From: Camelus dromedarius
Taxonomy: Eukaryota
NCBI RefSeq assembly: GCF_036321535.1
Contig: NC_087436.1
Coordinates: forward strand, 31,560,001-31,624,000
Reading direction: 5' to 3'
Length of the DNA: 64,000 nucleotides
Part shown: positions 20,702 through 64,000 of the stretch, piece after piece
Layout: the number at the start of each line of letters is the position of its first letter
How positions within the stretch are numbered: the stretch's first letter is position 1
Position numbers and translations under genes: made by a program
The notes under the pieces: generated by a model
The model's database searches: none
The model's input: only the letters and a program-made list of their open reading frames with translations
What the model was told of the DNA's origin: nothing

Positions 20702-23095
20702 CTTTTGAAAACAGAGATATGACATGTTAAGAAATTCACTTTTGTTTCATAATAATTTGTTTATATCTTTAGAATATAAAATAAATTAACTCATTTTTAA
20801 TTAAAGCTATATCACCAATAGGAAAAGGGGAAAAGAAAATAAATAGACATCACCTGGAAGAAGAAATATATAGAAAATAAATCATCAATTTTTTCCCATA
20901 TCAGATTTCTAGAAAATAAAAATATTAATAAAGCTTAGTGCTGGTGAGTTTATAAAAAAATGAATATTATCACACAGACTCTGAGCCAGTTATATTCTTG
21001 TAGGAATTTATCCTAAGGAAATAATCAGACAATTGGAAAAAGTAGTAAGTAAGATGCAACTTATCAAATTATTGCTCAAAAGGAAATGGTCTAAATGTTT
21101 ATCTCCTGTTATATAAATAAATCTCCTATTATATAGGAGAGTTGTTAAATACATATGGAACTTGTATATTCCCTGCAGTAGAATATAATGCAGTCATTAA
21201 AATGAAATATAGAGTTAAATATTTTTGATATAGGAAGACATTCATGGTATCTGATAAGTAGGCTGCAGAGCAATAACCAAATGAACATGAAATAAAAATG
21301 TCTGTGAGCCCGTGCCTAGATGGCTGCAAAATGTGCACAAAAATGTTATGACTGGTTGTCTCTGACAGGTGGAATACAAGTAGGTGATTTTTCTTTTCTT
21401 TATAATTTTCTGGAATTTTCCAAGCAAGTTTATTTTAAAAACTGTGTTATTATGAAAGTAAAACATACTTTTTATAAATTATTAAAACAATACAAACATA
21501 TATGAAGTAAAAAGTCAAAATCCTTTCCTTCCTACTTTGCTCTAAACTCTGTCAGACTTCTATCCATCCACAATCTATTTTACCTACATAGATTAAAAAA
21601 TACATAATCATTTCCTGTCTACAACTTGCTTTTCCCACACTCACATGCTTTACAGCATATAGCTACCTCTTTTTAATTACTGCATAGTATTCTTCTGTAG
21701 AATGCTATGACTTATTCACAAAATTCTTTATTGATAGACATTTAGGTAGTTTCTAGTTTTCCATGTGTTATTTTTATAACAATAAAATATCTAAGATACA
21801 GATATAGTCCCATCAACAATTCAGAGAGTCTTATTGCCCCTTTTTAAGTCTTTTCCTGTGGAAAGGATGGTAGGATGAAGAAGAGATACTGAATTAGAAA
21901 AACAATCAGGAGGTGAAACTGGCAAGATTTAATAAATAAACCCAAATATGGAGAGTGAGAGAGAAGATAACTTGGAAAGACCTCACATTTCTATATTTGG
22001 TGATTTGATGTATTACGGTGTCATTGATTGAAACTGGGCAATTAGGGAAAGAAGCAGGTTTATGAGAGAAGTGGACGAGCTGAGTTTACGACTTGCTGAG
22101 TTTGTTGTCTGTAGTACCTCCAGCAGGTAAGTCACATTGGTGTGTACACCAACAGGAAGCTGGTATATACAAGTTCTGTATCAATACAAGACAACCTTCA
22201 TTTAATGTATGATAAATGAACACTGACAAAATGCATGCTATACAGATGGTATAGAGAAAGCAGATGTTAGTATGGACTAGAAGAGTCATCAAAGGTTTCT
22301 CTGAAGAAATGAAACCTGAATTAGACCTTGAACTATGTGCAGTAGAGGCAGGGGGACTAGAATGAGGAAAGGGATATGAGTGAGAACATGCATGAACAGT
22401 GAGACTTTCAGCCTTTCAGAGGTCAAGAACTTTTGATTGAATATGATAGCTCAATTCATGAGTACCTTGAAAGCTTATGGGAATGGTTTGAACTTCATCT
22501 TAGGGATAGTAATGATTTGTAATTTAGGGAATGGCATCATAAAGAGTATTTCAGAAAGATAAGCCTGGTAGCTTAATTAGGATACATTATAAGGTGATCA
22601 TATAGCAAACCTGAAACTGTAATTTCATGACATGTCTTTTAGTCTTCACTTGATATGTGAGAGCACTAGGTAAGTACAAAATAAAAACTACATTTCATGT
22701 TGAAGTTGATGGGTCTCTATAATAAGTAAAACACCCCAAAACTTCCATAAAGAAGGTTTATAAGGTTAAAGCAGCAATTTGAAGACACTTTAAAACAAAG
22801 CAGGAATGCTGAACTCTTCTTACAATAGGTAACAGAAGTAAAGGAAGGAATTATAGCAGCAATTTAAAAATCTGGATTTGTAATTGCCATTTTTCACTGT
22901 TCTTGTTATATAGTTGAAGTCACATAGGTAATTGTGAAAAAGTCAGAATGAGAGATTGGTAGGAAATTATCAGAAACTGCACATGTCAGTTGCTCAGAAG
23001 CACTCACTTCCTTATAGCAAGATAAAATAATAGTTGTATGAGAGGTTATTATAAAAAGATTTATGTTTGCAATAAAATGCAGTACTTCCACTTAC

Positions 23096-23276
23096 CTTCA
23101 TAATCCCACAGTTCATTGAAAGGCTTTCCTGGTTCTCCTAGTGGGGCTGGAGGATCATTGAAAAATGGAGCACTAATTTCCATCATCACTCCTCCATCAC
23201 CCGGATTCACCCTGACAAACACTGGCTCATGCTTCACTGGAAACTCATCCCAAGTGTGTTCAATTTTAAAATCCAT
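23096..23276 (-). CDS. C4orf33: C4orf33 first coding exon: [60 protein letters not shown] (exon begins at 23285 with 9 nt of 5'UTR)
   Basis: ORF track 23061..23276; acceptor TCTTTTTCCCTTTAG adjoining 23285; donor GAAG|GTAAGT at 23095; spliced CDS totals 582 nt = 193 aa + stop. Confidence 0.96.
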
Positions 23277-26200
23277 CCGAAGACTCTAAAGGGAAAAAGA
23301 ATGAAAACAAACTCTTTAACAATTTACAAATGTTTCCTTTAGATGAAATAAAATGAAAAGTTCAAAGCCACATAGCAGGTAGGAAGGCAGCAGAGTGAAA
23401 AGAACACAGTTCTGAGAGTCAAAAGATCATTTGTGCTATGGCAAATCACAGACATGGAATTCAATTACAAAATAGGTGGTTGTATCCTAAAAGCTTTAAG
23501 TCTAGATCTAGCTCATGTTACCTTGTAAAGACTATATCAAAATCATTTTTAAGAACTGTAATTAAATCTACTGCAAGTTGTTCATGTACTTAACTATAAG
23601 CACTATGAGTTTATATGTCATGCTTTGTCATGCAGATGAATTACTGGATCTCATGGGAGTCAATATCTTTACAATAAAATTCAATTTGATTTTTAAAAAT
23701 CTCAATAAATGAGTACAAGCATTGCAGTTAACACTTGTTCTTTCGGCTTAAACTCTTCTCTTCTTAAGCTAGGAGTGGAAGGGGACTTCAATCATTTGAA
23801 GGTAAGCAGAGTTTAATATTGTCTTTCTTGATCTCGGGGTATAGATTTTCTTAGCCTTTTCAATTTATGTTATTTCAAGTGCTAAATGACCATTTGCTTT
23901 GTTACTTCCTTCTCTCCACTGAAACATGGGGAAAAATCTGCTATCATTTAAACTATGAAATAGACTAAGTTCATTTGACACAAACAGTATTTGCATTTTA
24001 ATTATTTCTCTAAGGATTAAAGGGGAGGACATAGTATTATATTAATAAAATTATGTTTTGCTGAACACTATGGATCAGGTGTTTTATAAACATCATCTCA
24101 TTTAATTTCACAAAAACTTGTAGAGGAAGTATTATTATCTTCATTACAAATGAAGAAACAGACTTGTCCAAGGTCAGATGGCTAGTAAATCAAGAAATCG
24201 AATCAATGTCAGCCATGCCTTCCTAGACGAAGACATTTCAGGAATCTGCAAAGAGATGAAAACCTTATTTCAGGAGAGGTGGATCCCCCCAAATTATACT
24301 AGGTCCTTATGTCTTGTCCAAAAGATAACCTTGATTAGTAAATGATGATATTTCCAGGCTGTAATTTTTCTTATCTGAAGTCTCTGGATGCATTTCCTTG
24401 CTTCATTTGTTATTTTTACTGCAAGTAACCAAGTTCTACATTTTGAAGAAATTTCTCTCTTTAAAAATTATTTTTAGATTTACTGAGGTATAATTGACAA
24501 ATTTATATATTTAAGGTGAACAGTGTGATGGTTTCATATAAATATACTTAAATACATTTATTTCAGTGAGTATATTTTGAGTACTTTACAATGTGTCAAG
24601 CACTTGGAGAACCAAATATACAAGCTCTGGGTCACATAAAGAATCCAAGATCTCTGAAAACCTTTTTCTAAAGTATGTAACTTTTTTCAATTTTCACTAT
24701 GTGCTAACAAATTTTAATAGATAACCTCTAAAATTAAAAAATAGTTCTGGTATTACAACCCATCTGCAAATAAAAGCATATTAAAAGAGGATAGGTTAAG
24801 CAATTTATATTCTTCATCATTGAAATAAGCTCAATGAACAATAAGACTGTATATAGATTCTGATTTATGTGAAATTAAGTCCGGACTTGCATGGAATAGA
24901 ATACCTTAGTAAAAAACTTATTTTCTTTAGTTGAAATATCAAGGTACATTCTTCAAAAATAAATATATTACCTTCTACCCCAAATTCTGGTACTAGTAAG
25001 TAAGTACCCTCTTGCAGCATATAGGAAGAAATAAGAATAAATTAAGTTATTAGAAATGATGATTTAATCTGATTCTGACACCAATATGCTGAGAGAATAT
25101 GCTACTCTCCTAACTTAGAGCTTGAGAATTCTTGACAGTCCTGGCAAAACATAGCTCAGCAACTAGGGAGTTTTGGTAGAGACATTCATTCTCCACATAA
25201 CCAACATATCCACAGAAAATGCTGCACACGTTAAAAGGATCCTTATCCTACTCAGTAGGTTTCTACCAGGGAATTTTCAACTCCCAGCTCTCTTAGGCAA
25301 TCATCTCTACGCCTAAATGGAATTACATCATATCCAGTGATGTGGTCCTAAACATGGTCTGTCACTTTCATGCACATATAATAGGTCTCACGGCCAGAGT
25401 GAGGTTTCAAATTACTTCAAAATGCAATCCTAACTGGAAGATAAGAAGAAATAAACGATAAAAGCAGAGCTACCCTTGTTGACAGTATAAGGTAGTGGTT
25501 TCTACTGGTTAATTCTGCCTTTTCCTCTAAGCGTTGTTTGGAAATTATTGCAAGAAATATTGACTAGACTTCCACTAGTGGGAAGGAGTGCCACAGCTGA
25601 CGTGTCCAAGTGTAGGATATAATTTTGGCTTTAACTGTACAAAATGACTTTAGATTCTTATCACAACAAATTTGTTCATTTGCTTAAAGAATATTCATGC
25701 TAATCTAAATGTGCATAATATTTATTTTAAAAAATCAACCTAAAAATTATAGTCCTGCCCACTAGTTTATGATCTAATTTAAAGATAACATGGACCCAGA
25801 GACAACTGATTCACCTTTCAACTCCCTGGGGACCCTTGGATTAGGATTGTATAGGTTTAACCTGCATCACCTTTCAATTTTCATTGTTTGCACATGTGCT
25901 CTTACGAAGTACAGACAATTCAACCACCAGCATCCTTCACGACCTGGGCTAGTGTGCATCCGTGCAGCATTCCAATCCCTATCACTCTATATTGCCCATA
26001 CACTGCTCTGTTTTGATTCACAACACTTATACTGCATGTCATGTTGTTTATTGTCTCCCCATTCCCAGCTAGAATGCCTGTAAGTAATAGGAATAACAAA
26101 GTATTTATTTGTTGAGTGAAAAACTGTTCTAGTCTCTGGATCCAAAATTTCATGATTCTGAGATTTTATGCAGGAGAAATCAACTGTGTTAGTGATATTA

Positions 26201-31819: not shown

Positions 31820-32900
31820 TGAACAGAATTCACTTGGCAGGTCCCCAGCAAACCCGAAATCTGAAGTTTCTACCCTGAGCGAGGGACTCGGCTGGGACTC
31901 GGTATAAGGAGATAACTAAATTCATACCCAGAAATCCTCCAGAGGGACAGCCTTGGATGTAGACTCTGAAGACGCCAGTCTGGGTTCCGACGCCAGTCTG
32001 GGTTCCAACCCCAGACGCAGAAAGCTGCGTGCTTTCCACCCACCCGCTTTGGCCAGCGGGTTCTCCCAGTCTGAAGTGCTAGGTAACAAAGATACTGGGG
32101 AATTTAAAGTATATATTTAATGCCTTACCTATGTTTACATTTGGGAGGGCTTCTTTAAAAAAAAAAAAAAAGAATAAAAGGGAAAAAAATTACCCCCCCC
32201 ACCCCCGCCCCAGCTTGCCGGCTACCACACAGGTGGCTAAACAGGCTGTCATCCAGGTTCCCAAAGCTCCGCCCCTCGCTTTGCAGGTAGCCAATAGTGT
32301 GAGAGAACTCCAGGAAGTGCGGCGACGCAAGCGCTGACGCCAGCGTGATGGCGCAGGCGGCGTCACTGTCTCCAAGGAGCGGTCTGGGGCACCGGTTTCA
32401 AAGTCGCAGGGCGGGCCGAGTGGACTTCCGCTGCTGGCCTCGGGCTTCCCGGCCGTCCTGAAGTCGCTCGTCGTTCTGCCAAGGACGCCGCCACCGGGCT
32501 GCCCGCCGGCTTCCTCGGCGCTCTCCTGAGTGGCTCGACACGACCCCGAGTGACCCGCGGGACGCATATATCCACCCGCGTCCCTGGTCCCACCTGGCTG
32601 AGATTCGAGTGAACGTGGAACAGAATTCACGTGGCGGGTCCCCAGCAAACCAGAAATTTGTAGTGTCTTTTGAGCGAGGGGTTCGGCTGGGACTCTGGGG
32701 AAGGAGACGCCGCGGGGCTATTGACGCCGCGTGAGTAGGATGCTAATTACACTGCTCTAGTGCCAAACAACCTCCGAAGCGTTGCCTTACTTTTGTTTTC
32801 CCGCACAGCGAGGTTTGTGTCTTTTTGAGAAAAGGTGGTGAATGCTCCAAACTAAAATTGTATCCAAATAGACACAGAAATCGACTTCCCGCGAGAACAA
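31820..32900. promoter_or_regulatory. CpG island; SCLT1 promoter/5'UTR, probably bidirectional with C4orf33
   Basis: High CpG density; GC boxes (~32202, ~32267), CCAAT (32291), ETS-like CAGGAAGTG (32311) and ACTTCCG (32424), TGACG half sites; strong minus-strand donor AG|GTAAGG at ~32128. Confidence 0.85.
31971..32006. repeat. 18-bp perfect tandem duplication
   Basis: GACGCCAGTCTGGGTTCC x2. Confidence 0.92.
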
Positions 32901-32901
32901 A
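32868..32901 (+). CDS. SCLT1: SCLT1 exon 1, segment orthologous to the first 34 coding nt; reads ATA-DTEIDFPREQ (start codon is not ATG, so it may be untranslated)
   Basis: Aligns to recalled human MAAEIDFLREQ; donor A|GTAAGC at 32902; phase 1 matches exon 2. Confidence 0.7.
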
Positions 32902-34059
32902 GTAAGCTCTATATTCCTTGATTGAGAATTCTTAAATGTAATGTTTAATATCGTCATTGTTAACTAATGTTTTCTGAGTGCCTGTTTGGTGCCTAAAAAT
33001 TTGCAAAAACTTTAAAAAGCTGCAGAAAAAGCTTGGTGGTATATATGAGGATGTGTATACACTTTAAAACCGTTTGGTAAATACAGGTTCCTTACGCTTA
33101 TATGGGACTCTGTTACAGGCATGTTTGTTATGCTCCTCGCATGCTCTGGAGAAATTAGAGGGCTAATGGCCAGAATAGTTTCCAGCTGCAGTTAGAACCT
33201 AGAAGCACAGCTCTGGCCATTTGTTCAAAGATTGTTTATTGAGCGCTTCCTGTTTCTGTTACGTGCCAAGCGCTATACAAGCATAGATACTACACGGGTA
33301 AGGAGGACTGTTCTATCCTCCAAGAATTTAATTTGAGGAGGAAAATCTGTAAATTCCATATATATGCTGAAGTGGTAGCAACGACTAACCTTTTTTGCCT
33401 CAGTTTCCTCACAGGGTTGTTGGAATGATTAAATGAGTGTTAAATATATAAAGGATTTATCATAGTGTCCGACACATAGGGCTAAACAAATATTAACAAT
33501 TACAGGGTTATAATTTACTGTGGTCAAGGAAGGTGCCATTTGTGCTGAAACTTGAAATACTAATATGAATTTACTAGGTAAAGAACTGTGTAAGCAGACA
33601 ACACTATTTGCAACACTGAAGGGATTAGGAATATGCTTTGTAAAAAATTTGAAAGAACGTTGGCTTGAATGGAATATGGTGTATATAGGAAACTGGCATG
33701 TGGAGCTGAAAGGGAAGAATTCGGCTAGATGGTGAAGGGCCTCCTCTGCTGTGTGTTAAGGAGTTTGGACCTTTGCACAGGTTTTAGGAATCACTGAAAG
33801 GAATTCAGTTGAGTAACTTGATCAGATTGTGATTTATTTGAAAAGCCCAGCTGGTTTTTATGAGGAACACGCGTTATAGCAGAGTGCAGTTAGGTGACTG
33901 TTGTCATTATCCAGGTAAGAAGTAAACTAAGGTAGGTACAGAGAAACTGGAGATGAGGGATTTTACAAAAGAGGTAGAGGACACCTCAGGTTTTTGGCTT
34001 GCTTGAGGAACAGGGGGAGTAGGAAAAAAGTAGTAAGTTCCATTTTGGAAGCATTATAG

Positions 34060-34300
34060 GCCAGTGGTTAAGAACTTAACCTCTGGATTCAGTCAGCCTG
34101 GGCTCATATTTTAGCTTTGTCTCTTTCCAGGTCTTTGACCTTGGGCAAGTTACTTAGCTGCTTCTCCGTGTCTGTTTTCTCATTTGTAAAATGGGTATAA
34201 TAGCACAACAACCCTTAAGGGTTTATTGTGAGGATTAAGATGATGCAAATAAAGCACTTAGGATGGTGCTTAGCACATATTAAGTGCACAGTGTATATTA
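34060..34300 (+). mobile_element. MIR SINE
   Basis: TGACCTTGGGCAAGTTACTT...TTTTCTCATTTGTAAAATGGG...GTGAGGATTAA. Confidence 0.8.
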
Positions 34301-36289
34301 TCTAAAATCATTAATGACCCTATATTGATAACATTAGGATTATTTCTTAGGTTTCTTAGGTTTGAAATGGAAATACCCTTTTCCAATAAAGAGGATTAAC
34401 TGGCCACCATCTGTGTGGTGTGGGAGAATTGGTGCTGAGGAGTTTGGTTGGGGTGGGGAGTAAAAACTATGTTTCAGAGGAATGCATCAGCCAGAATTCT
34501 TAAAACTGAAATCCAAATACCAGAGAGAATGGTAGAAGCATTGTAAATTATTTTTTGAAAAATGAGTGGTAGTTCACCAGAAGACAAATGAGTGGAAGAA
34601 GGGAGTCCTTACATGGAGGGAGCGGAAGAAACAAAGGCTTGGAGGCTTAAAATAACTGCTTATTCAGGAAATTGGAGTACAGAATGGTAAGATTTTCATG
34701 AAGAGATGATAATGAGTTTTGGATGTCTGTGAACCTCCCCCTTTTTCCTTTAACTGGATCTCACATGCCAGTTACAGCTAGTGGATGACCTCCACATTAG
34801 TTGACCTGCTAAACACCAGCTCAGGTAAATATAGATCGATTGCCTTTCTCCCACCTACCTGTGTATTCTCTGCGTTGACTTCTATTCCTTTTTGAGCCTC
34901 TTTTCATTTGTTCTAGCATTTGCAGGACACCATTCTTCCCTCTCCATCTGGGAAGTGAGATCTGATAGTCCTTAGGGACCTGTTCGAAGAGAGACTTGTA
35001 TATCAAGCTAAGGAATGAAGAATTCATTCTTGTAGTGGGGATTATGAGCATTGGGGATGGACTCTTTTGTTTTCCTTTTTATTCTCTTAAGAGTGTCTTT
35101 TACAGAGCAGAAGTTTTTAATTTTAATGAAGTTCAATTCATCAATTTATTCTTTAATGAATGTGCCATATATAAGAAATTTTTACCTTACCCAGGGCTGT
35201 AAAGATTTACCTCTGTGCGCTTTTCTACAAGTTTTGTAGTTTTAGATTTTACATTAAATGTTTTTTTCTTGTGTCTTTTTCTGGTTTTGGTATCAGGTAA
35301 TGTTGGCTTAATGGAAAATATTTTGCCCTCTTCAGTTTTCTGGGATACATTTGTGTAGAATTGGTATTATTTCTTCCTTAAATGTTGGTAGAATTTACCA
35401 GTGAAGCCAATTGGTTCCCTTTGTAGGAAGATTTTAAACTACAGATTCAACTTCTTTAATAGAGAGTTATTCAGTACTCTGTTGTGCAAGAAAGACCCTT
35501 TACAGGTGGTATATATATGGAGTTCTCTCTCTGTGCAGCTTTCTCTCTTATTCTTTGCCCTGCCAATTCTAGTTTAATTGTTTTCCACTGAGTCTCAACT
35601 TCGTCTCCTTAACTCGGAGAGTCTGCTGATCTCTGCTGCATTTTCCCCCTCTGTTCTACGGCCTGAAATGTCTCTCAGGTCATTAAGCTGGGGTGATCCT
35701 TAGGGCTCATCTCATTTGTTTTGTGTCTGTCATTATCATTGTCTGATGTCTCCTGTCTTGCAAACCCTTGTTTCAATTGTTTGTTTTTTGGTTGTGTCAG
35801 GTGGGAAAGTGGTTCTTGTTAACTTTATCTTGAGCGTGAAAATCCTATTCAAATTGACCTCCTTTTGAAACACAAATATCTTACTCCCACTGTAACTGTT
35901 CTTTGACTTCATCAAGACCTCTATTTGTTGAACCCTTCATTTTCTACCATTTCCTTAACTCTTTCCCAGCTTGTGTTTTACTACTTTCTTACACAGACTG
36001 TAACAGTTGCCCACTGGTCCATCTGCTTTCTTGTTAGTAGTATGACTATGCCCCTGCTTTTCTGTAGCACATGTCCAGTAACACCTTATACCTAGTTGCC
36101 TTTCAGTTCTCATACCCAACTGTTAATAACCATAGATAAAAACCTCCTAGATAAGTACCACCACAAATTCAAGGTTAATTCATAGCTAGTAAGTAACTGA
36201 GCTGGGACTTGAACCCAGGCAGTCAAGTTCCAGTGTCTGTTCTTAACTACTACCCGGCAAAGACACTTGCATGAAAGAAAACTTATAAG

Positions 36290-37350
36290 CCTGTTTCACT
36301 TATGCACATAGAAACTAAAATCTTAAATAAAATATTAATAAGTTGAATCCAGCAATGAATATAAATTGTGTATAGATACCTATATAAACATACAGTCATC
36401 TTCATATTGGGTTCATCCTAGCAATGAAAGGGTAGTTATAAAATTATTAGAAAATTAAATACATAAGAGAAGACCTAGATTAATGGAGAAACATCAAATT
36501 TATGAATTTGAGCGCTCAATATAGTAGACATAAATGTGTCAGTTATCTCATAAATTAATGAGTAGATTGAATGCAATGCCAAACCTAGTTTTGACAACAT
36601 GGTTCTAAAATCTATGTGGAAGAGCTAAGAATAACCAAAAGGGTTTTAAAGAACATCAAGATGGGAAATTTTATTTTACTATTAAGACTTATTATAAACA
36701 TACAATTTTTAAATCAATATTATATTGGCAGTTAAATATATAGATCAGTTAGCACAGAAACAAACACACGTATCCACGAACATCTGAAAGAACAAACAAC
36801 ACAAATCTAGACTGTTCAGCAAATGATGCTAGGATAATTGGCTTTCCAAACGAGATAGTAAAAATAATAAAGATATCTTTCTGACATCTTTCTCACGCCA
36901 TATAGAAAAATCATCTCCAGGTTGATTGAAGGAATAAATTCTCTTAAACTTACAGAAAAAAATTTAACAGGGTGTCTTTATGATCTCAGGATAGAAGATT
37001 TCTTCAATAAACATTTTTGACTGAAAGGAAAATATGTATGAATAGATTACACTAGAAATAAAAACTTGGATATCACAACATCATCAATATAATGACTAGC
37101 CCATCCACAGAAAGGGAGAATATATTTACAGTAAACATGACCAAGAGTTGATTACCATCCAGAATTTAAAGAGATCTTTCACAAACAAAAACACATTCAT
37201 ACTAATAGAAAAATGGTTTTTTTACAAAAAAAAAATAAAACCTGGAGAGGCCATTTACAAAAAATAAAACCTGGAGAGCTACTAAAAATATGAAAAGGTG
37301 TCACTCTCATCAGTAATTCAGAAAACGCAAATTAAACAATGAGATAAGTG
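36290..37350 (+). mobile_element. Old LINE-1 ORF2 fragments
   Basis: Degenerate L1 ORF2 motifs (TTCTAAAATCTATGTGGAAGAGC; AAATGATGCTAGGATAATTGG); contains a short direct duplication at ~37221-37278. Confidence 0.6.
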
Positions 37351-37919
37351 CTTGTTGAATAAAGGAAATACTAGATTTAAATTACAGTAAAACTCTGCTG
37401 ATTAAAGTCAGTGTATGAAGATTTTGTTTTCTTCATTAATGCACAATTGACTTCTTAACCTTGTTTAATTACTGAGAACTCAGATTTAGTATTTCTTCTT
37501 ATTTGAAAAATGTATCAGAAAAAGTAGTAGTTTGTATTGGAATTATTATATCCCTGACCATATCTCCAGTCTCCTTTTGAGACTGAAGAGTAATAAGCAG
37601 AAACTAGATCCTAATTTTAGAGCTGTGTCGAGCAACTTTCTTAAAAGTTCTGAGGATAACAAAAAAGGATAATTCCTTTTAAACTCAATAAAAAGTTAAA
37701 AATTATTTAAATTATTTATTTTTATAATTACTTATTCCTTTATCAGACTCACGTGTATCTGTCATATTTCTCCACTAAATTATGTGTGCTTTCAAGGAAG
37801 AAACTTATCTGAAGGTAACAATGTAGAATATGTACACTATCTGTGTGTACGTGATATATGTTTGTTTACTGATATATATAGTTAATGTGTATGTGCATAT
37901 ATATGTATATTTGCTTATA

Positions 37920-40900
37920 TATAACATATGCAGAAAAGTAGAGAAAACAAATATAAAACTAATAGAATTGTTACAAATCTCAAAACTCTTAACCACAACC
38001 CAGATCAAAAAATAAAATGTTGCTAAGACCTTAGAAGCCCTGTTGTAATCATAACCTCTCCCCCATCTCCAAAGATACTCAAAGATAACCAGTATTTTTA
38101 ATTTTACCCTGTGATTTAGTTTTGCCTCTGTTTGAAATTTATATAAATGGAATCATAAACAGAATCATAAATTGTGTATCCTTCCATGTTTGGCTTCTTT
38201 CATTCAGTATTACGTTTTTGAGATTTATTCATATTCTTGCTTGTAGATGTAATATGCTCATTTTCATTGCTGTAGAATAATCAGTTTATAAATTTATCAC
38301 TTTTATCCATTTTTCTTTTGATATTTTCAGTTGTTTCCAGTTTGGGGGGCCATTGAAAATAGTGTTTTTATCAATATATTTTGTCATGTCCTTTAGAGCT
38401 CAAGTGCCCACATTTTGGTTGGGTATATTCCTAGGAATTATGTGTTTGTTTAATCTTAAAGTTGTACTAATTTACACTCTGACTAGCAGTGTATGGGAGC
38501 TTTCTTTATTCCATGTTGTCAACATTTGTTTTTTAATCTTAGCTCTTTATTATAATTTTAGTTTGTATTTTCCTGATATCTGAGGTTGAGCAGCTTTTCT
38601 ATGTTTATTGACCACCTGAGTAAACTTTTTGTGAAGTACTCATTCAAGTCTTGCTTTTAGGAGTGTCTGCCTTCTAATTGATAAACGTTCTTTGTATATT
38701 CTAGAAATAAGCCCTTTGTCAGTTATATGTGTTGGAAATATCTTCTCCATGTTTGTAGCTAGCATTTTTACTCTCTTAACAGTCTCTTTTTTGATGATCA
38801 GAAGTTCTTAATTTTAATGTGGTCCAGTTTATCATATTTTTCTTTTATGGTTAGTGCTTTTTGTGTTTTGATTTAAAAATACCTTTTTCTCCTGTAAGGC
38901 TATAAAGATACTCTCTGTTCTCATCTAGAATGTATTGTTTTGGCATCCACAGTTAGATTGCCAATTCACATAGAATTGATTTTTATGGATGATGTTTTGT
39001 TCTTTTCCGTGAGGCTATCCAGTTGACCCAGAACCACTTACAAAAAGTCCTTCCCCCCTCACAGCTCTGGAGTGCCCCTTTGATCACAATATATATATGT
39101 ATTTTCCTGGATTCTGGATTCTCTTCAATTGCTCAGTTTTGTTCATCCTTATATGACTATCACCCAATCTAAATGACTATAGCTTTAAAATAAATCTTGG
39201 TATCTTGTTGAACAAGTCTTCCCCTCTGTTCTTCTTTGGCAAATGTATTAGCTATTCTCATTACATTTCCGCCATATTTCATTTTATTTTTTATTTTTAT
39301 TTTTTGAGTAGGGTATCTCATTGGTATTTTAATTTACTTCTCCATAATGCACAATGCATATCCTTTTCCAGTAATTCCCCAATGTTGATCAATTTATACA
39401 TACTTAGTTCACATTTATGTATAATTTTCAGTAAGGTAGTACTCATGTTGACCTATTTGTTTTAATTTGGGTTTGTTTTCTTATTGTGGAGATTTTCTAG
39501 TTCTTTGAGTATTTTGCATGCAAATCTTTCTTCATTTATGTGTTTTGAAGGCATATTCTCCTAGTTAGGGGCTTGTCTTACCATTCTTTGAACATTGTCT
39601 TTCACAGAGTGGACATTTTAAATTTAATAAAGTACATGTTATCAATGTTCTTCTTTCCTGGATTGTGCTTTTTGTGTTGTGTGTGAAAACTAATTATCAA
39701 ACTATAACTCACGTAGATTTTCGCCTACTGTCATTTTTGTAGTCTTTTTTTTTTTTATATTTAAGACAATGAATGATTTTGAGTGAACTGATGTCTAAGG
39801 GGCAGAGTTTTTGTCTTTATTTATTTCCTTATGGTCATCCGTTTGTAGCATCATCATTTGTTGAAGATGACTAAAGACTAAAAGTTGATCTTTTCTGTGT
39901 TGATGTTCCTTTATTCCTTTGACCAAGGTCAAGTTGTCTGTATTTGCATAGATCTATTAGTAGAGTCTCTATTGTGTTCCATTTATCTGTTATTTGTCTG
40001 TTTGTTTAACATTCTGTTCTCTCTTGATTATTTTAGGTTTATAGTAAATCTTGAAATTGGAAAATGTGAGTTCATTAACTTCTTCATCGGTGTTGTCTAG
40101 ACTACTCAATGCCGTGTTTAAACAAGTTTGTTGATATCTACAAAATGGCTTGCTGAGATTTTTTTATTGGGCTTGCACCGGATCTGTAAATCATTTTAAG
40201 AAGCATTGATTCTATTCTTATCTTGTGGTTGGCTTTATTCCTTTGATAACTATGTAAGTTTAAAAAGCTAAAGCTCGGAACTGTTCTTAGAAACAATGAA
40301 CAGTACATATATGTAAATTTAAAAAAAAGAAATATCCAGAAAAAAAGAAGCATTGACATCTTAATAATATTGTGGCTTTTGATCATGAGCAAGGAATATA
40401 TCTCAATTGGTTTTTCTTTCATTGCTTTCAAGAAGGTTTCATGTCTTTTTTTCTTTTTAAAAAAACTTTATTCTAAGTTTATTTTTTTAAAAAGATCCAG
40501 TTCATCCATCTCCCTGCCCCCACCCTCCACTTCTTACCCCAACCAATCTGTTTTCTGAATTGATGAGCTTGGTTCCTTCATTCCCTTTCCTTCCTTTTAC
40601 TCTTTCCCTTCCCTTCTCTTCCCTTCCCCTACCTTTCTTTCTTTTCTTTTTTTCCTTTTTTTTTTTTTTAACATGTGGAATCATGTAAGAGAAATCATGT
40701 CTTTCTGTTACTTATTTCATTTAGCTAATGCTCTTGAGGTCCATCCATATTGTCACAGGTGGCAAATTATTTTTTATGGCTGAGTAATATTCCATTGTAT
40801 ACATACCATAGTTTCTTTATCCATTCATCCAACAATGGACCCTTAGGTTGTTTCCATATCTTGGCTGTTGTAAATAATGCTGCAGTGAACATGGGGGTGC

Positions 40901-41480
40901 ATATATCTTTTCAAGTTAGTGTTTTCATTTTCTTTGAGTAAATACTCAAAAGTGGAATTGCTGGGTCATATGGTGGTTCTATTTTTAATTTTTTGAGGAC
41001 CTACATACTGTTTTTCATAGTAGTTGCATCAGTTTACATTCCTACCAACAGTATACATTTCCATGTCCTCACCAACACTTGTTATTTCTTGTCTTTTTGA
41101 TAATAGCCATTCTAACAGGAATAAGGTGATATCTTATTGTGGTTTTGATTTACATTTTCCTGATAATTAATGATGTTAAGTATCTTTTCATGTGTCTGTT
41201 GGCCATCTGCATGTCTTTGGAAAAATGTCTATTCAGATAATCTGTCCATTTTTTAATTGGATTGTTTGTTTTAGCTACTGAGTTGTATGAGTTTTTTGTA
41301 TTTTGGATATTAGCCCCTTATCAAGTACATTATTTGCAATTATTTTCAGTTGGCTGTCTTTTCATTTTATTGATGGTTTTCTTGGCTGTGCAGAAGTTTT
41401 TTCCTCTTTAAGAAGTTCCGAGGTACTACATTTTCACTATCATTCAGTTCAAAATACTTTCAGATTTGTTTTGCAATTCC
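37920..41480 (-). mobile_element. Mosaic of antisense LINE-1 fragments, with a younger copy at ~40470-41400
   Basis: Antisense L1 text (TTTTTATGGCTGAGTAATATTCCATTG; AGTGGAATTGCTGGGTCATATGGT; TAATAGCCATTCTAACAGG). Confidence 0.8.
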
Positions 41481-41604
41481 TCCTGAGACCAGTGAGTTAT
41501 TGAAAAGAAATTTCTTAACTTCATAATGTATGGAGATCTTTATTTTCTAATTTCTTGATTCCAGCCAAATTGCACTATTATCAGGTAATACACTCTCTTT
41601 GGCT

Positions 41605-42125
41605 TTGCAGGGGAAGAAAAATAATTTTCCTCTACCCTCCTAGGTTCTTACCTGAACCTCCCCTCTCTCCCCCATAAAAGACAGATGAACAGGAGAAAAA
41701 ACAAGTTTAGTAACATGTATACATTCTGTATGCATTAGAGAGGTCCAGGAAACCTGAGAAAAACTCTTTCCTTGGCTGAAGATTACAATCTTAAATAACA
41801 TCTTCAGCTAAAGACAAAAGAAGATGTTAGTGGGGAAAGAGTAGGCAGTTATGAGAAGTTACCAGGAAAAGACCAGTAAATGAGGGTGAGGTTGTTATGC
41901 AGATTTAAGTTGTTGCCTTCCCTATTGTTAGAGTCCTCTTTCTCTTTCTGGTATAGAAAGGGAAATATAAATGGAATTTTCTCTCATAAATGTTAAAGTA
42001 TTTACAAAAGGATAATTTCTCAGTTTTCAGAGTTTTTCCTATGTCTGCTATTTCTTAAAAATAATGAGCCTAAAATAATACTTATGCTAAAGAGGCATAT
42101 TTTAGAGTGGTGTATTCTTCTCCTA
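41605..42125. mobile_element. Probable solo LTR
   Basis: Recalled ERV1-type LTR text (AAAATAATTTTCCTCTACCCTCCTAGG...AAAGAGGCATATTTTAGAGTGG); family not assigned. Confidence 0.5.
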
Positions 42126-42224
42126 TGGAGTTACAGTCGTTTGACAGTTATTGAGACTTACTCTTTTGTCAGCAAATTATGAGTTTTAAATGTTCATGTG
42201 ATCTTGAAAGAATGAATTTTGTAG

Positions 42225-42658
42225 TGTCGATTGAAAAAAATGTACTGCCTAAAATTTGAGACTTACGTTTTATTCAGCAGACATACTGAGGACTTAACCT
42301 GGGAGACAGCCTCTCAGATAGCTCTGAGGGATTGTTCTGACGAGGTAAGGGAGGAGCCAGGATATATAGGAGTTTTTCCAACCAAGTCCAGGTAGTTGGA
42401 ACATCAAAAGATTACTATTAATTAAAGAAGAACCAGACATCTCAAGTTAATGAATTTTGCACTCTTTTATGAATGGGAAGATGCAAAAGTCTGGACTCAT
42501 TGAAATCATTCCTTTGATATGCACCTTAACTATCTAGGGCCAGTATCCTGCTTTTCTCCATCCTGAATTTCCTCAGGGTGCACAGTTGGGGATGACTGCA
42601 GTGGCTGATGGCCCCCACATCTTTTGTTTACTGATTTGCAGGGGACATTGTTCATTCA
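42225..42658 (-). mobile_element. ERV1-type solo LTR
   Basis: TG...CA ends; minus-strand AATAAA near the left end; shares GACAGC(C/A)TCTCAG(A/G)TAGCTCTGAGG with the element at 44915-45367. Confidence 0.65.
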
Positions 42659-43085
42659 TAGTATATTTGTTGGCTGCTGTGTTCTATTGTATGTTTCTTT
42701 TCTTGATGCAAATAAAAATATCACCTTGCACTTACTGAGAGCTCTGGCCTTTTCTGGACCTTCTTTTCCATTGTCTCTTGCCCATTAATTTGGATACTTT
42801 GTTCTGCAGTTTCTCTGTAGTGTGGAGGTTTGTCCTGGAAGAGAATTTCAGCAGATTTTAATTTCTGAAGATGTATAGTTACAGCCTTATCTTTCCAACT
42901 CTCTTCACTTCTAGTAGCAGGGACGAGAAAAATAAATGTGGAGAATATTTTTTGCCTTCCAGTAACCTGAAGATCAAGCCAAGAAAGACTGAGAATTAAA
43001 ATTTATAGGGTCAGAAAAATTAGTTCTTGCAGCTCTTTTTTTCCTGCTGTTAGTAGTTGGCCTAGGTGCGTAGAATGACCTATTC

Positions 43086-43408
43086 TTTTTTTTTTTTAAC
43101 ATTTTTTATTGAATTATAGTCATTTTACAATGTGTCAAATTCCACTGTAGAGCACAGTTTTTCAGTTATACATGAACATACATATATTCATTGTCACATT
43201 TTTTTTCTCTGTGAGCTACCGCAAGATCTTGTGTATATTTCCCTGTGCTATACAGTATAATCCTGTTTATCTATTCTGCATATGCCTGTCAATATCTACA
43301 AATTTTGAACTCCCAGTCTGTCCCTTCCCACCCTCCTACCCCTTGGCAACCACAAGTTTGTATTCTATGTGTATGAGTCTGTTTCTGTTCTGTATTTGTG
43401 TTCTTTTC

Positions 43409-43439
<31 letters not shown>

Positions 43440-43900
43440 TTCCACATATGAGCGATCTCATGTGGTATTTTTTCTTTCTCTTTCTGGCTTACTTCACTTA
43501 GAATGACATTCTCAGGGGACATCTATGTTGCTGCAAAAGGCATTATGTTGTCTTTTTTATGGCTGAGTAGTATTCCATTGTATAAATATACCACATCTTC
43601 TTTATCCAGTCATCTGTTGATGGACATTTAGGCTGTTTCCATGTCTTGGCTATTGCAAATAGTGCTGCTATGAACATTGGGGTGCAGGTGTCTTTTTGAA
43701 GTAGGGTTCCTTCTGGATATATGCCCAGGAGCAGGATCCCTGGGTCATATGGTAATTCTATTCCTAGTCTTTTGAGGAATCTCCATACTGTTCTTCACAG
43801 TGGCTGCACCAAAGTACATTCCCACCAGCAGAGTAGGAGGGTTCCCTTTCTCCACAGCCTCTCCAGCATTTGTAATTTGTGGACTTTTGAATGATGGTCA
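43086..43900 (-). mobile_element. Young 5'-truncated LINE-1
   Basis: Poly(T) tail, 3'UTR and ORF2 C-terminus ([16 protein letters not shown]); near-perfect TSD TAGAATGACCTATTCTT / TAGAATAGCCTATTCTT. Confidence 0.93.
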
Positions 43901-44083
43901 TAGAATAGCCTATTCTTAAATTTTAAAATGGTGTGTGAAAACTGAGGATTCATTTTATTTTGAATAGCAGTGAAGACTAGCAGTTTTGTATTACATATAT
44001 CAAATAATATCTATGTTATTTCTATTTTTTAAAAATTGAGTATTGCCTAATGAACTACAAATTGGTTTTTCTTTTTGTTTCAG

Positions 44084-44151
44084 ATCAAAGATTAAATGAC
44101 ATTCTTAGGCGATATCAAATGGAAAATTTTTTCAAATATTCATCAGTACAG
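44084..44151 (+). CDS. SCLT1: SCLT1 exon 2: (N)QRLNDILRRYQMENFFKYSSVQ; first in-frame ATG at 44119
   Basis: TTTTTGTTTCAG acceptor, CAG|GTATGT donor, 68 nt; resembles recalled human NRRLNEDFRRYQMESFSKYSSVQ. Confidence 0.93.
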
Positions 44152-52480: not shown

Positions 52481-52539
52481 AAAGCTGTCTTCAAAAGAGA
52501 TGGAGATGACACATTGGAAAACTCAGTCGTTGATCAAAG
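52481..52539 (+). CDS. SCLT1: SCLT1 exon 3: KAVFKRDGDDTLENSVVDQ(S)
   Basis: TTTTCTGTTATAG acceptor, AAG|GTGACG donor, 59 nt, phase consistent. Confidence 0.92.
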
Positions 52540-53304: not shown

Positions 53305-53377
53305 CTTTTTAGCTCCTCTTATTACTGAGTATGATAAGCGTCTGGAAGAGCTAAATGGGCAGCTGAAATATTATCAG
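53305..53377 (+). CDS. SCLT1: SCLT1 exon 4: (S)FLAPLITEYDKRLEELNGQLKYYQ
   Basis: TTTTTCTTTAG acceptor, CAG|GTATGA donor, 73 nt; resembles recalled human SFLAPLVTEYDKHLGELNGQLKYYQ. Confidence 0.95.
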
Positions 53378-55448: not shown

Positions 55449-56349
55449 TTTTAACCATTTTTTATCGATTTATAATCATTTTACAATGTGTCAAATTCCA
55501 GTGTTCAGCACAATTTTTCAGTTATACATGAACATATATATATATTCGTTGTCACATTTTTTTTCTCTGTGAGCTACCATAAGATTTTGTGTATATTTCC
55601 CTGTGCTATACAGTATAATCTTGTTTATCTATTCTACAATTTTGAAATCCTGTCTATCTCTTCCCACCCTCCGCCCCCTTGGCAACCACAAGTTTGTATC
55701 CTATGTCTATGAGTCTATTTCTGTTTTGTATTTATGCTTTGTTTTTTGTTGTTTTTTTTTTTGTTTTTGTTTTTTAGATTCCGCATATGAGCGATCCCAT
55801 ATGGTATTTTTCTTTCTCTTTCTGGCTTACTTCACTTAGAATGACATTCTCCAGGAGCATCCATGTTGCTGCAAATGGCGTTATGTTGTCGGTTTTTATG
55901 GCTGAGTAGTATTCCATTGTATAAATATACCACATCTTCTTTATCCAGTCACCTGTTGATGGACATTTAGGCTGTTTACATGTTTTGGCTATTGTGAATA
56001 GTGCTGCTATGAACATTGGGGTGCAGGTGTCATCCTGAAGTAGGGTTCCTTCTGGATATAAGCCCAGGAGTGGGATTCCTGGGTCATATGGTAAGTCTAT
56101 TCCTAGTCTTTTGAGGAATCTCCACACTGTTTTCCATAGTGGCTGCACCAAACTGCATTCCCACCAGCAGTGTAGGAGGGTTCCCCTTTCTCCACAGCCT
56201 CTCCCGCATTTGTCATTTGTGGATTTTTGAATGACGGCCATTCTGACTGGTGTGAGGTGATACCTCATCGTAGTTTTGATTTGCATTTCTCTGGTAATTA
56301 GTGATATTGAGCATTTTTTAATGTGCCTTTTGTTGTAATGTAATGTATA
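55449..56349 (-). mobile_element. Young 5'-truncated LINE-1 with open ORF2 C-terminus (170 aa) and 17-bp TSD
   Basis: ORF 55774..56286 [17 protein letters not shown]...HCWWEC...; TSD TGTAATGATCCAACTTT at 55432-55448 and 56350-56366. Confidence 0.95.
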
Positions 56350-57654
56350 TGTAATGATCCAACTTTAATCCTAGTTTATGCATGTCTCCTATATAATTAT
56401 TTGAATAATATATATTTTTCAAGATGCATTAATATTTTTGCAACTTTTGAAGATCATTATTTTTAAAATTACAAAATGGAGGTCATTGCTACAGTGAAAT
56501 CCAAGCCTCTTAGTTATCATGGCATTCAAGACCTGCCACCTGCCTTTCCAGTTTTTTCTCTCATTGCATCACTCCATGTATGGTCAGTTCTCAGTTATCT
56601 GGCAGTGAATTTATTCATTTTTAGTTTAATTGTGATCCAGACGCAGCAGGGGCCTGGGAAAGGTTCACCTTTCAAGGCAGCTTTGTATGTAATTGGCTAT
56701 TACTGATTTCCTAGACCAAGCTGCCTTGAGCTTCTCTTGAAGCATTGCATGTTTCACCCTTCCCTTACCAGGTTCACTCTAGGCTTGTCTCTTCTCCTAT
56801 AACCTAGAGTACCCAATCAAGACTAATGGATATATCATGCATTGGTTGCAGTTTTGTTTTAAGTGTGATTTTACATGCCCTCCTTTCTGATCTCCATCTG
56901 CTCATTTACTTTTATTGAGAATTCACTATATACCTTGTTATCTAATGTTTTTTTCTTCATTTTCTCCCCACTTGAAATGCCCTTCCTTTAATCTTGAAAT
57001 CTAAAATCCCTTTATCCCCTCAAAGAAAATTAATCGTACCTTCATCTCATTTCCTTTACAGTGTGTATTTTATTCTTACTTATATTTCAGTTAGTGACTT
57101 TTTATCATCTTTCCTACTAAAATTTGTGTTAGCAACCACGTTGGCAGCCTTGTATAGTGCAGAGAGTTTCGACAATTAATAAAAGGTGATCAGAGACTGA
57201 ATGAATTACTGCTAAGGAAGATCTCTATTTTCTCTTTTCACCATAAACATTTTACTTTTTGAAATAAAAGCACTTAGATGGGCTTCACCTAAGATCGATT
57301 AATTAAGATATACATTCAAAGTCTAGATATCATCTGGTATTTGTTATGGTGACATACTGAGGAATATCTTTCATCTGTTTTCCTCTAAACATCTAGAAAT
57401 CATAGGAATTATTTATAAATATTCTGTAAATTTTATATAAAATACTTTTATATTCTATTCCAAGTGTTTTATCATGTTCTGCATATCATGAAAATACCTA
57501 TATTTAATATTGCTTGTTAGAAGTGAAGAATAATTATTTCTTATCTGTAGACTAGAGTCATATCTGGTTACTTGCAGATGGATGGACTACTTAATCCATT
57601 TCAGATCTAATTATGTGGAAAATGTTTTCCTACAACGATATTTTATTCTTTCAG

Positions 57655-57710
57655 AAACAGACAGGTGAAATGAAACTACAGCTTGAAAATGTCATCAAGG
57701 AAAATGAAAG
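57655..57710 (+). CDS. SCLT1: SCLT1 exon 5: KQTGEMKLQLENVIKENE(R); gene continues beyond the window
   Basis: TTTATTCTTTCAG acceptor, AAG|GTAGGT donor, 56 nt; exons 1-5 sum to 290 nt in one open frame. Confidence 0.95.
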
Positions 57711-62381: not shown

Positions 62382-63797
62382 TTTTTTTTTTTTTACAGCT
62401 ATGGAAAATACTTTTTAAAAATTTTTTTTAACATTTTTTAATTGAGTTATAGTCATTTTACAATGTTGTGTCAAATTCCAGTGTAGAGCACAATTTTTTA
62501 GTTATACATGAACATACATATATTCATTGCCACATTATTTTTCACTGTGAGCTACCACAAGATCTTGTGTATATTTCCCTGTGCTATACAATATAATCTT
62601 GCTTATCTATTCTGCATATGCCTGTCAACATCTACAAATTTTGAACTCCCAGTCTGTCCCTTCCCACCCTCCTACCCCTTGGCAACCTCAAGTTTGTATT
62701 CTATGTGTATGAGTCTGTTTCTGTTCTGTATTTGTGTTCTTTTTTTTTTTTTTTTTTTTTTTAGATTCCACATATGAGCGATCTCATGTGGTATTTTTTC
62801 TTTCTCTTTCTGGCTTACTTCACTTAGAATGACATTCTCAAGCGACATCCATGTTGCTGCAAATGGCGTTATGTTGTCTTTTTATGGCTAAACAGTACTC
62901 CATTGTGTAAATATACCACCACTTCTTTATCCAGTTGTCTGTTGATGGACATTTAGGCTGTTTCCATGTCTTGGCTATTGTAAATAGTGCTGCTATGAAC
63001 ATTGGGGTGCAGGTGTCTTTTTGAAGTAGGGTTCCTTCTGGATATATGCCCAGGAGCAGGATCCCTGGGTCATATGGTAATTCTATTCCTAGTCTTTTGA
63101 GGAATCTCCATACTGTTTTCCACAGTGGCTGCACCAAAGTACATTCCCACCAGCAGAGTAGGAGGGTTCCCTTTTTCCACAGCCTCTCCAGCATTTGTAA
63201 TTTGTGGACTTTTGAATGATGGCCATTCTGACTGGTGTGAGGTAATACCTCATCGTAGTTTTGATTTGCATTTCTCTGATAATTAGTGATATTGAGCATT
63301 TTTTCATGTGCCTATTGATCATTTGTGTTTCTTCCTTGGAGAATTGCTTGTTGAGGTCTTCTGCCCATTTTTGGATTGGGTTGTTTGTTTTTTTCTTATT
63401 AAGTCATATGAGCTGCTTATGTATTGTGAAGATCAAGCCTTTGTCGGTTTCATTGTTTGCAAAAATTTTCTCCCATTCCGTAGGTTGTTGCTTTGTTTTG
63501 CTTATGGTTTCCTTTGCTGTGCAGAAGGTTGTAAATTTCATTAGGTCCCATTTGTTTATTCTTGCTTTTATTTCTATTGCTTGGGTAGACTGCCCTAGGA
63601 GAACATTTTTGAGATGTATATGAGATAATGTTTTGCCTGTATTTTCTTCTAGGAGGTTTATTGAATCTTGTCTTATGTTTAAGTCTTTGATCCATTTTGA
63701 GTTTATTTTTGTGTATGGTGTAAGGGAGTGTTCTAGCTTCATTAATTTACATACTGCTGTCCAGTTTTCCCAACACCATTTGTTGAAGAGACTGTCT
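62382..63797 (-). mobile_element. Young LINE-1 (ORF2 3' part and 3'UTR), closely similar to 43086-43900
   Basis: ORFs 63404..63742, 63089..63322 and 62838..63299 are L1 ORF2 pieces; 3'UTR is nearly identical to the 43-kb copy. Confidence 0.95.
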
Positions 63798-64000
63798 TTT
63801 TTTTTTTTAACATTTTTTTTTTATTGAGTAATAGTCATTTTACAATGTTGTGTCAAATTCCAGTGTGGAGCACAATTTTCAGTTATACATGAACATACAT
63901 ATATTCATTGTCACATTTTGTTTTTCACTGTGAGCTACCACAAGATCTTGTATATATTTCCCTGTGCTATATACAATATAATCTTGTTTATCTGTTCTAA
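63797..64000 (-). mobile_element. Second young LINE-1 3' end, apparently inserted in the previous L1 (runs off the window)
   Basis: ORF2 text GTTGAAGAGACTGTC is interrupted by poly(T) and a new L1 3' terminus. Confidence 0.9.

What the first reader, a model, noticed from the sequence alone, without database searches (positions are those of the whole stretch)
32842..44151. SCLT1 has lost its canonical start codon (ATA instead of ATG); the same base closes an upstream ORF
Seen: the codon aligning with Met1 is ATA (32868-32870), followed by DTEIDFPREQ and an intact donor. An in-frame TAA at 32853 rules out an upstream in-frame ATG in this exon. An out-of-frame ATG at 32842 (MLQTKIVSK) stops at TAG 32869-32871, a stop that exists only because of this A. 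With a G there, that ORF would run across the start and end in exon 2. The next in-frame ATG is Met24 at 44119 (caaATGg), 65 nt after the uORF stop in spliced mRNA and past a weak out-of-frame ATG at 44096 (taaATGa). Exons 2-5 are open with canonical splice sites. Known: SCLT1 is a centriole distal-appendage protein needed for ciliogenesis; human begins MAAEIDFLREQN (recalled). Inference: this lineage makes either a 23-aa N-truncated SCLT1 by leaky scanning or re-initiation, or uses a near-cognate AUA start. The apparent Leu-to-Pro change at codon 8 fits relaxed constraint on the skipped segment.
Basis: partly seen in the sequence, partly recalled or inferred. Interest (0 to 1): 0.72.

Follow-up and report, generated by a model that had tools for sequence, protein, structure and literature searches.

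The report
Camel SCLT1 lost its start codon
In camels the usual start codon of SCLT1, a gene needed to build cilia, is mutated and the first 23 amino acids have drifted, so the protein most likely starts at the next methionine; this is a real but familiar kind of gene change.

Summary
Observation confirmed: ATA at 32868-70 occupies codon 1 of SCLT1. Exons 2-5 match dromedary SCLT1 at 84 of 84 residues. Codons 2-23 differ from the mammalian consensus at 5 of 22 sites against 37 of 665 downstream (p=0.008), so the segment has lost coding constraint. That argues against an AUA start and for Met24 (665 aa).

RefSeq models of dromedary, wild camel, alpaca and one bat start there, giving an 11-residue replacement of the same length. 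It overlaps the likely branch point and may be an annotation rescue. The flagged uORF has a weak context and is probably incidental. No read or splice-junction data were obtained, so the start site is inferred. RefSeq already holds both isoforms; no paper describing the loss was found. The scan had no earlier SCLT1 note.

The parts
32731..32808 (+). Candidate 78-nt intron in the 5' leader (GT donor at 32731, pyrimidine tract and AG ending 32808); the donor is also in phase with exon 2
   Evidence: Signals in sequence. Polar-bear models P0072, P0134, P0135 join a homologous segment to exon 2 (compared by eye). In camel that join is open from 32664 but holds no ATG before Met24. Splicing not shown in camel.
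32740..32760 (+). Upstream ORF of 6 codons with A at -3; removed if 32731-32808 is spliced out
   Evidence: its stop lies 176 nt before Met24 in spliced mRNA
32842..32871 (+). Out-of-frame upstream ORF of 9 codons, weak context (-3 T, +4 C); its TAG uses the mutated A
32853..32855 (+). In-frame TAA five codons upstream of codon 1
32868..32870 (+). ATA at the position of the ancestral start codon (-3 C, +4 G)
   Evidence: indirect support for the base
32868..32901 (+). Formerly coding 34 nt of exon 1 (codons 1-11) with A2D, L8P, D10E against the mammalian consensus; intact donor at 32902
44050..44083 (+). In-frame intronic ATG plus 10 open codons (start of RefSeq 688-aa camelid models); overlaps the only yTnAy branch-point-like motif (A at 44050) and the pyrimidine tract
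44084..44151 (+). SCLT1 exon 2 (codons 12-34; E17D, V18I against consensus)
44096..44098 (+). Out-of-frame ATG in weak context (-3 T, +4 A)
44119..44121 (+). Met24, the most likely working start (-3 C, +4 G, the same context class as the lost start); start of RefSeq 665-aa models
52481..52539 (+). SCLT1 exon 3
53305..53377 (+). SCLT1 exon 4
57655..57710 (+). SCLT1 exon 5

Best explanation
An ATG-to-ATA change removed SCLT1 Met1 in the camelid lineage, probably before camels and alpacas split. The gene stays functional. On the normal exon 1 to exon 2 mRNA, ribosomes scan past the ATA and the weak out-of-frame ATGs at 32842 and 44096, or re-initiate after a short uORF, and start at Met24 (44119). 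The product is 665 aa and lacks most of a short N-terminal helix. Codons 2-23 became 5' leader and drifted. Shown: the sequence, the exon homology, the excess of changes, the annotation pattern. Inferred: timing, actual start usage, and that the short helix is dispensable.
For: (1) Codons 2-11 match the consensus in 16 of 18 non-camelid taxa (the two bears differ), while the window has 3 changes in 10. Codons 2-23 have 5 of 22 against 37 of 665 downstream, Fisher p=0.008; changes private to camel are 4 of 22 against 16 of 665, p=0.003. In the 16 non-bear taxa this segment is about half as variable as the rest (12 of 352 against 771 of 10640), giving 0.58 expected changes against 5 seen (taxa are not independent). 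(2) Residues 24-688 are ordinary: 37 differences, within the 23-80 range of the other taxa. (3) 0 of 10 camelid entries have the canonical N-terminus: 4 start at Met24, 4 at 44050, 2 further in; 114 of 135 other entries begin MATE. Met24 models exist for dromedary, wild camel and alpaca. (4) Met24 has -3 C and +4 G, like the lost start; ATGs 32842 and 44096 have neither a -3 purine nor +4 G. These two positions matter most for start recognition (PMC5666671 passages). (5) The alternative donor at 32731 also yields Met24 as first in-frame ATG. (6) In a horse-led model the lost part lies in helix 2-38, low confidence, separated by a linker from the long coiled coils. (7) None of the 19 human disease variants listed lies in codons 1-23 (PMC13260799 supplement part 1 of 3); weak, given so few variants.
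Against: No reads, junctions, ribosome profiles or peptides were examined. The excess is clear for codons 2-11 but not for codons 12-23 alone (2 of 12, p=0.15), so the data do not separate a Met24 start from a 44050 start. Met24 is not universal: it is Val or Lys in 3 of 18 non-camelid taxa, and a HeLa table lists only the annotated AUG for SCLT1 (PMC13219423, supplement search, 4 files not searched), so a pre-existing Met24 isoform is not shown. Residues 1-23 are strongly conserved elsewhere, which argues that they matter. Three or four upstream ATGs precede Met24 and should lower output. RefSeq models are predictions.
Confidence: 0.6

Rival explanations
1. N-terminus swap: camelids make full-length 688-aa SCLT1 from the intronic ATG at 44050, on transcripts whose exon 2 is extended upstream (alternative acceptor near 43967-43983, retained intron end, or an internal start site). 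Eleven intron-derived residues replace exon 1 at the same length.
For: RefSeq 688-aa models of dromedary (XP_010975977.1, XP_064352040.1 and two more), wild camel (XP_006180249.2 and others) and alpaca (XP_072793689.1) start there. The bat Hipposideros armiger has an isoform with the identical 12 residues beside a canonical isoform, so the model was built even where Met1 exists. The replacement keeps M1, F7, L8 and has L for I at position 5. Candidate acceptors lie at 43966-43983. Codons 12-23 show no significant excess of change.
Against: The ATG overlaps the only yTnAy motif in the last 64 nt of the intron, 34 nt from the exon, so splicing alone can conserve it. An unnamed Logan protein (P0005) reads the same stretch in a shifted frame, implying a pyrimidine tract one base longer and no frame conservation there. 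An open in-frame ATG arises in 13% of shuffles of the last 60 intron bases. Context is weak (-3 C, +4 A), and Phe and Leu are expected from any T-rich tract. Only 5 of 10 hits in a search with residues 1-40 carried this N-terminus: 4 camelid, 1 bat (13 candidates only). Gene predictors give this gene several odd first exons in other species. No transcript was seen.
Confidence: 0.22
2. Near-cognate initiation: ribosomes start at the AUA itself and make a full-length 688-aa protein as the main product.
For: The frame from ATA is open through exon 5, the donor is intact and +4 is G. AUA can initiate in vitro (PMC5666671 passages).
Against: -3 is C, and flanking bases weigh more on non-AUG starts; AUA is not among the four most efficient codons named. 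Codons 2-11 carry three changes including L8P in a predicted helix where 16 of 18 other taxa are invariant. An open 34-nt frame needs no selection.
Confidence: 0.07
3. An unseen alternative first exon inside the 11-kb intron or upstream supplies an in-frame ATG to exon 2.
For: Other species have models with other first exons joined to exon 2 or 3 (buffalo, polar bear, bat).
Against: None of the 10 camelid entries shows such an N-terminus. The one alternative donor tested (32731) gives no ATG. I did not survey intron 1 for exons.
Confidence: 0.07
4. The A is an assembly error or a private allele.
For: Base 32870 was not seen in laid reads. 9 of the 14 full-share runs may be the source of this DNA.
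Against: 5 runs from 3 samples in 2 studies not flagged as source hold share 1.00 of 102 sampled words; the chance that no sampled word covers the base is about 0.03 if words fall independently. Three camelid species lack a canonical model. Three further amino-acid changes sit in the same 34 nt.
Confidence: 0.04

Closest known systems
RefSeq camelid SCLT1 models: 665-aa isoforms (XP_031321933, XP_032319266), alpaca XP_072793687.1 (700 aa, Met24 start) and 688-aa isoforms (XP_010975977.1, XP_006180249.2, XP_072793689.1)
   Same: Same gene; the annotation already avoids codon 1 and starts at Met24 or at 44050.
   Different: These are predictions with no stated start-codon loss, no test of constraint and no choice between the two starts.
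N-terminally truncated proteoforms from alternative AUG selection (Ly et al. 2025, PMC12718117; passages read)
   Same: A downstream start bypasses a lesion near the annotated start and gives a shorter protein.
   Different: That work concerns human isoforms and disease alleles; here the lesion appears fixed in a lineage. SCLT1 did not occur in its 6 supplementary files.
Non-AUG initiation in mammals (Kearse and Wilusz 2017, PMC5666671; passages read)
   Same: AUA differs from AUG by one base and can initiate in vitro.
   Different: Functional cases rely on good context or a downstream hairpin and keep the translated codons conserved; here -3 is C and the codons drifted.
Mammalian SCLT1, distal-appendage protein of the CEP83-SCLT1 module (Kanie et al. 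2025, PMC11984956; passages read)
   Same: Same exon lengths as human through c.290; RefSeq camelid proteins about 90-91% identical to horse; all-helical model.
   Different: Lacks Met1 and probably residues 1-23; no function for those residues appeared in the passages read.

Membership tests
SCLT1 orthologue | Sequence identity to named SCLT1 proteins | tested here: met
   84 of 84 residues over exons 2-5 identical to dromedary SCLT1; 2 differences each from alpaca and wild camel
SCLT1 orthologue | Exon structure matching human (intron 5 after c.290) | tested here: met
   34+68+59+73+56 = 290 (PMC13260799)
SCLT1 orthologue | Family profile match | tested here: inconclusive
   Precomputed PF28159 on the hits, but the local Pfam copy matched 0 of 4 proteins, horse included
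Start loss rescued by a downstream AUG | Ancestral AUG lost | tested here: met
   ATA at codon 1; Met1 in 18 of 18 non-camelid taxa aligned
Start loss rescued by a downstream AUG | Nearby in-frame AUG with intact, conserved frame behind it | tested here: met
   ATG 44119; 37 of 665 differences downstream, within the range of other taxa
Start loss rescued by a downstream AUG | Skipped codons released from constraint | tested here: met
   5 of 22 against 37 of 665, p=0.008; significant for codons 2-11 (p=0.017), not for 12-23 alone (p=0.15); amino-acid counts, not dN/dS
Start loss rescued by a downstream AUG | Initiation shown at the downstream AUG | not testable with these tools
   Needs initiation-site profiling or N-terminal proteomics
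Functional non-AUG initiation | Favourable context (purine at -3 and G at +4) | tested here: not met
   -3 C, +4 G
Functional non-AUG initiation | Coding conservation behind the near-cognate codon | tested here: not met
   3 private changes in codons 2-11
Functional non-AUG initiation | Stable hairpin about 14-18 nt downstream | not tested
   Spliced mRNA was not folded
Regulatory uORF with re-initiation | Short uORF ending upstream of the main start | tested here: met
   9 codons, 65 nt before Met24; a second of 6 codons, 176 nt before
Regulatory uORF with re-initiation | uORF ATG efficiently recognised and conserved in relatives | tested here: inconclusive
   32842 is weak (-3 T, +4 C), 32740 has -3 A; no DNA of relatives was available
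Alternative coding 5' extension of exon 2 | In-frame ATG and open frame into exon 2 | tested here: met
   44050
Alternative coding 5' extension of exon 2 | Presence in mature transcripts | not tested
   No junction or read data obtained; only predicted models
Alternative coding 5' extension of exon 2 | Frame conserved across species | tested here: inconclusive
   Identical in three camelids and one bat; frame shifted in P0005
Pseudogene | Stops, frameshifts or raised divergence along the coding sequence | tested here: not met
   Exons 2-5 open; full-length models in three camelids; dromedary and alpaca differ at 8 of 688 residues

The most novel reading that the evidence does not exclude
Camelids replaced the exon-1 N-terminus of an essential ciliary protein with an 11-residue segment read from the branch point and pyrimidine tract of intron 1. 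The segment has the same length and keeps the hydrophobic positions 5, 7 and 8, so one stretch of DNA would serve both as a splice signal and as the main coding start. A latent minor isoform, also modelled in a bat, would have been promoted when Met1 was lost.
Probability: 0.15. Interest if true: 0.68.

Novelty: new member of a known kind. Interest (0 to 1): 0.38.

Why it matters
SCLT1 loss disrupts cilium formation (PMC11984956 passages) and human variants cause ciliopathies and retinal degeneration (PMC13260799). A mammalian family that apparently lives without Met1 is a natural deletion test of residues 1-23, which are nearly invariant elsewhere. It predicts that human start-loss or early truncating variants before Met24 may be partly rescued, which bears on variant interpretation. 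It also shows that public camelid annotation offers two incompatible N-termini, one possibly an artefact. The mechanism itself, rescue by a downstream AUG, is familiar.

Tried and rejected
No whole genome was held. No read-level, junction or expression result was obtained, so the base and the splice forms rest on indirect evidence. A 22-nt degenerate pattern around codon 1 found 12 metagenome loci; in 12 of 12 the similarity was confined to the pattern, so all were dropped as chance. Pfam scans matched 0 of 4 SCLT1 proteins and 0 of 1 minus-strand exon. The structure model is low confidence (mean pLDDT 67, pTM 0.28; 49 and 61 over residues 1-20), is horse-led, and was not searched against fold libraries. 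Earlier scan notes: none by place; by words, 8 notes on prokaryotic or viral AUA starts, none relevant. Literature searches that did not show this start loss, judged from listings: SCLT1+camel, 2 papers; SCLT1+start codon, 8 papers, 7 listed; camelid, start codon, gene loss, cilia at 3 of 4 terms, 154 papers, 15 listed; general start-loss searches. A camelid comparative-genomics paper has SCLT1 0 times in its text and once in an orthologue list (PMC12127551). The library lacks most subscription papers and bioRxiv supplements. Rejected: pseudogene; AUA as main start; the 32842 uORF as a selected compensatory element (weak context; its closure follows automatically from the same base).
Full report
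OBSERVATION. With G in place of A the upstream ORF would run 23 codons into exon 2. Exons 3-5 lie at 52481-52539, 53305-53377 and 57655-57710, all open with AG/GT ends. The coding lengths sum to 290, and human intron 5 starts after c.290 (PMC13260799 section 5), which fixes the ATA as the counterpart of human c.1-3.

IDENTITY. Exons 2-5 translate to 84 of 84 residues identical to dromedary SCLT1 (XP_010975977.1), with 2 differences each from alpaca and wild camel. The window is most likely dromedary DNA.

IS THE A REAL? I obtained no read-level data, so the evidence is indirect. A run search with 32300-33300 listed 24 runs; 14 hold share 1.00 of 102 sampled words, 9 of them flagged as possible source. 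The other 5 come from 3 samples in 2 studies. If words fall independently, the chance that none covers base 32870 is about 0.03. Among 145 SCLT1-like proteins fetched (best 120 of 498 hits; many are isoforms of one gene), 0 of 10 camelid entries have the canonical N-terminus, against 114 of 135 others that begin MATE. The camelid entries come from dromedary, wild or Bactrian camel and alpaca. A predictor would be expected to use Met1 if it were there, so I infer that the loss is shared and predates the Old and New World split, put at about 16.3 million years (PMC12127551 passage). I did not see exon-1 DNA of the other species.

LOSS OF CONSTRAINT. I aligned the window's N-terminus plus the dromedary protein with one full-length protein from each of 18 other mammalian taxa (human and pig were not among them). 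Codons 2-11 equal the consensus in 16 of 18; the window has A2D, L8P and D10E. Codons 12-23 add E17D and V18I. That is 5 of 22 against 37 of 665 downstream (Fisher p=0.008); private changes are 4 of 22 against 16 of 665 (p=0.003). In the 16 non-bear taxa the segment is about half as variable as the rest, so 0.58 changes were expected (taxa share history, so this overstates the significance). Codons 12-23 alone are not significant (p=0.15). The rest of the protein is normally conserved, so the gene is not a pseudogene.

An ATG at 44050 lies in frame, 34 nt before the exon-2 acceptor, the same length as the coding part of exon 1. RefSeq 688-aa models of dromedary, wild camel and alpaca begin there with MNYKLVFLFVSD; other models of the same species begin at Met24. 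A bat, Hipposideros armiger, has an isoform with the same 12 residues alongside a canonical one. Against a coding role: the A of this ATG is the A of the only yTnAy branch-point-like motif in the last 64 intron bases (the consensus is recalled); an unnamed Logan protein reads the same stretch in a shifted frame; an open in-frame ATG appears in 13% of shuffles; and the context is weak. Human start sites 274-404 nt before the AUG (PMC13219423 supplement rows) map roughly to 32460-32600 (no indel correction), so 32740 is probably within the leader unless spliced out.

MECHANISM. Best reading (0.60): scanning past the ATA and the weak ATGs at 32842 and 44096, or re-initiation after a short uORF, to Met24, giving 665 aa. 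Met24 has the same -3 C, +4 G context as the lost start, and the second candidate donor also leads to Met24. A low-confidence model puts residues 2-38 in a short helix set off by a linker from the long coiled coils; by eye I5, L8, N12, L15, L19, Y22 form a heptad, which L8P would break. Rivals: N-terminus swap to 44050 (0.22), AUA initiation (0.07), an unseen first exon (0.07), error or private allele (0.04). Against the best reading: Met24 is replaced in 3 of 18 other taxa, a HeLa table lists only the annotated AUG, and several upstream ATGs should reduce output. The 32842 uORF is real, but its closure follows from the same base and its ATG is weak, so I give it no special role.

COMPARISON WITH WHAT IS KNOWN. 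It works like rescue of a start-proximal lesion by a downstream AUG (PMC12718117, passages). It fails two tests for functional non-AUG initiation, context and conservation (PMC5666671, passages; its Table 1 values were not shown). SCLT1 forms a structural module with CEP83 and is needed for ciliogenesis (PMC11984956, passages). None of 19 listed human disease variants lies in codons 1-23 (PMC13260799; abstract, sections 5, 9, 10 and supplement part 1 of 3). Searches showed no description of the camelid start loss, but RefSeq encodes its consequence.

VERDICT. A real and probably family-wide start-codon loss in an essential ciliary gene, with measurable drift of the skipped codons. It is a new member of a known kind; interest 0.38. 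The bolder reading, an intron-derived replacement N-terminus that doubles as splice signal, has probability about 0.15 and would merit 0.68. Junction counts into exon 2 would decide between the two.

Noticed in passing
proteins P0136, P0144, P0139, P0070, P0071, P0140, P0142 (bears): Bears show a parallel drift of codons 2-23 while keeping Met1: black bear 4 of 22 (p=0.034), panda 6 of 22 (p=0.0015). Brown-bear models begin in a shifted frame or at Met24, implying an indel in exon 1 in that assembly; a polar-bear model is intact. Possibly an independent loosening of the same segment.
   Followed up: partly
proteins P0138, P0067, P0113: Met24 is Val in white rhinoceros and Lys in Rhinolophus and musk deer, all with intact Met1; in this panel no lineage lacks both.
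   Followed up: partly
window 31821-31912 and 32618-32707: A diverged direct duplication of about 90 bp (blocks 88% and 84% identical, about 796 bp apart) on either side of the GC-rich promoter; unexplained.
   Followed up: no
window 23061-23285, minus strand: An open frame that I recall as a coding exon of C4orf33, the head-to-head neighbour of SCLT1; name recalled, Pfam scan gave no match.
   Followed up: partly
window 32348: A further out-of-frame upstream ATG in strong context opening 37 codons; probably upstream of the main transcription starts if these map as in human.
   Followed up: no
window 43150-43900, 55470-56370, 62500-63820: LINE-1-like fragments in the SCLT1 introns, seen as reverse-transcriptase-end-like frames on the minus strand; class recalled, not tested.
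   Followed up: no
window 31971-32014: An 18-bp tandem duplication (2.4 copies, 92% match) just upstream of the GC-rich promoter.
   Followed up: no
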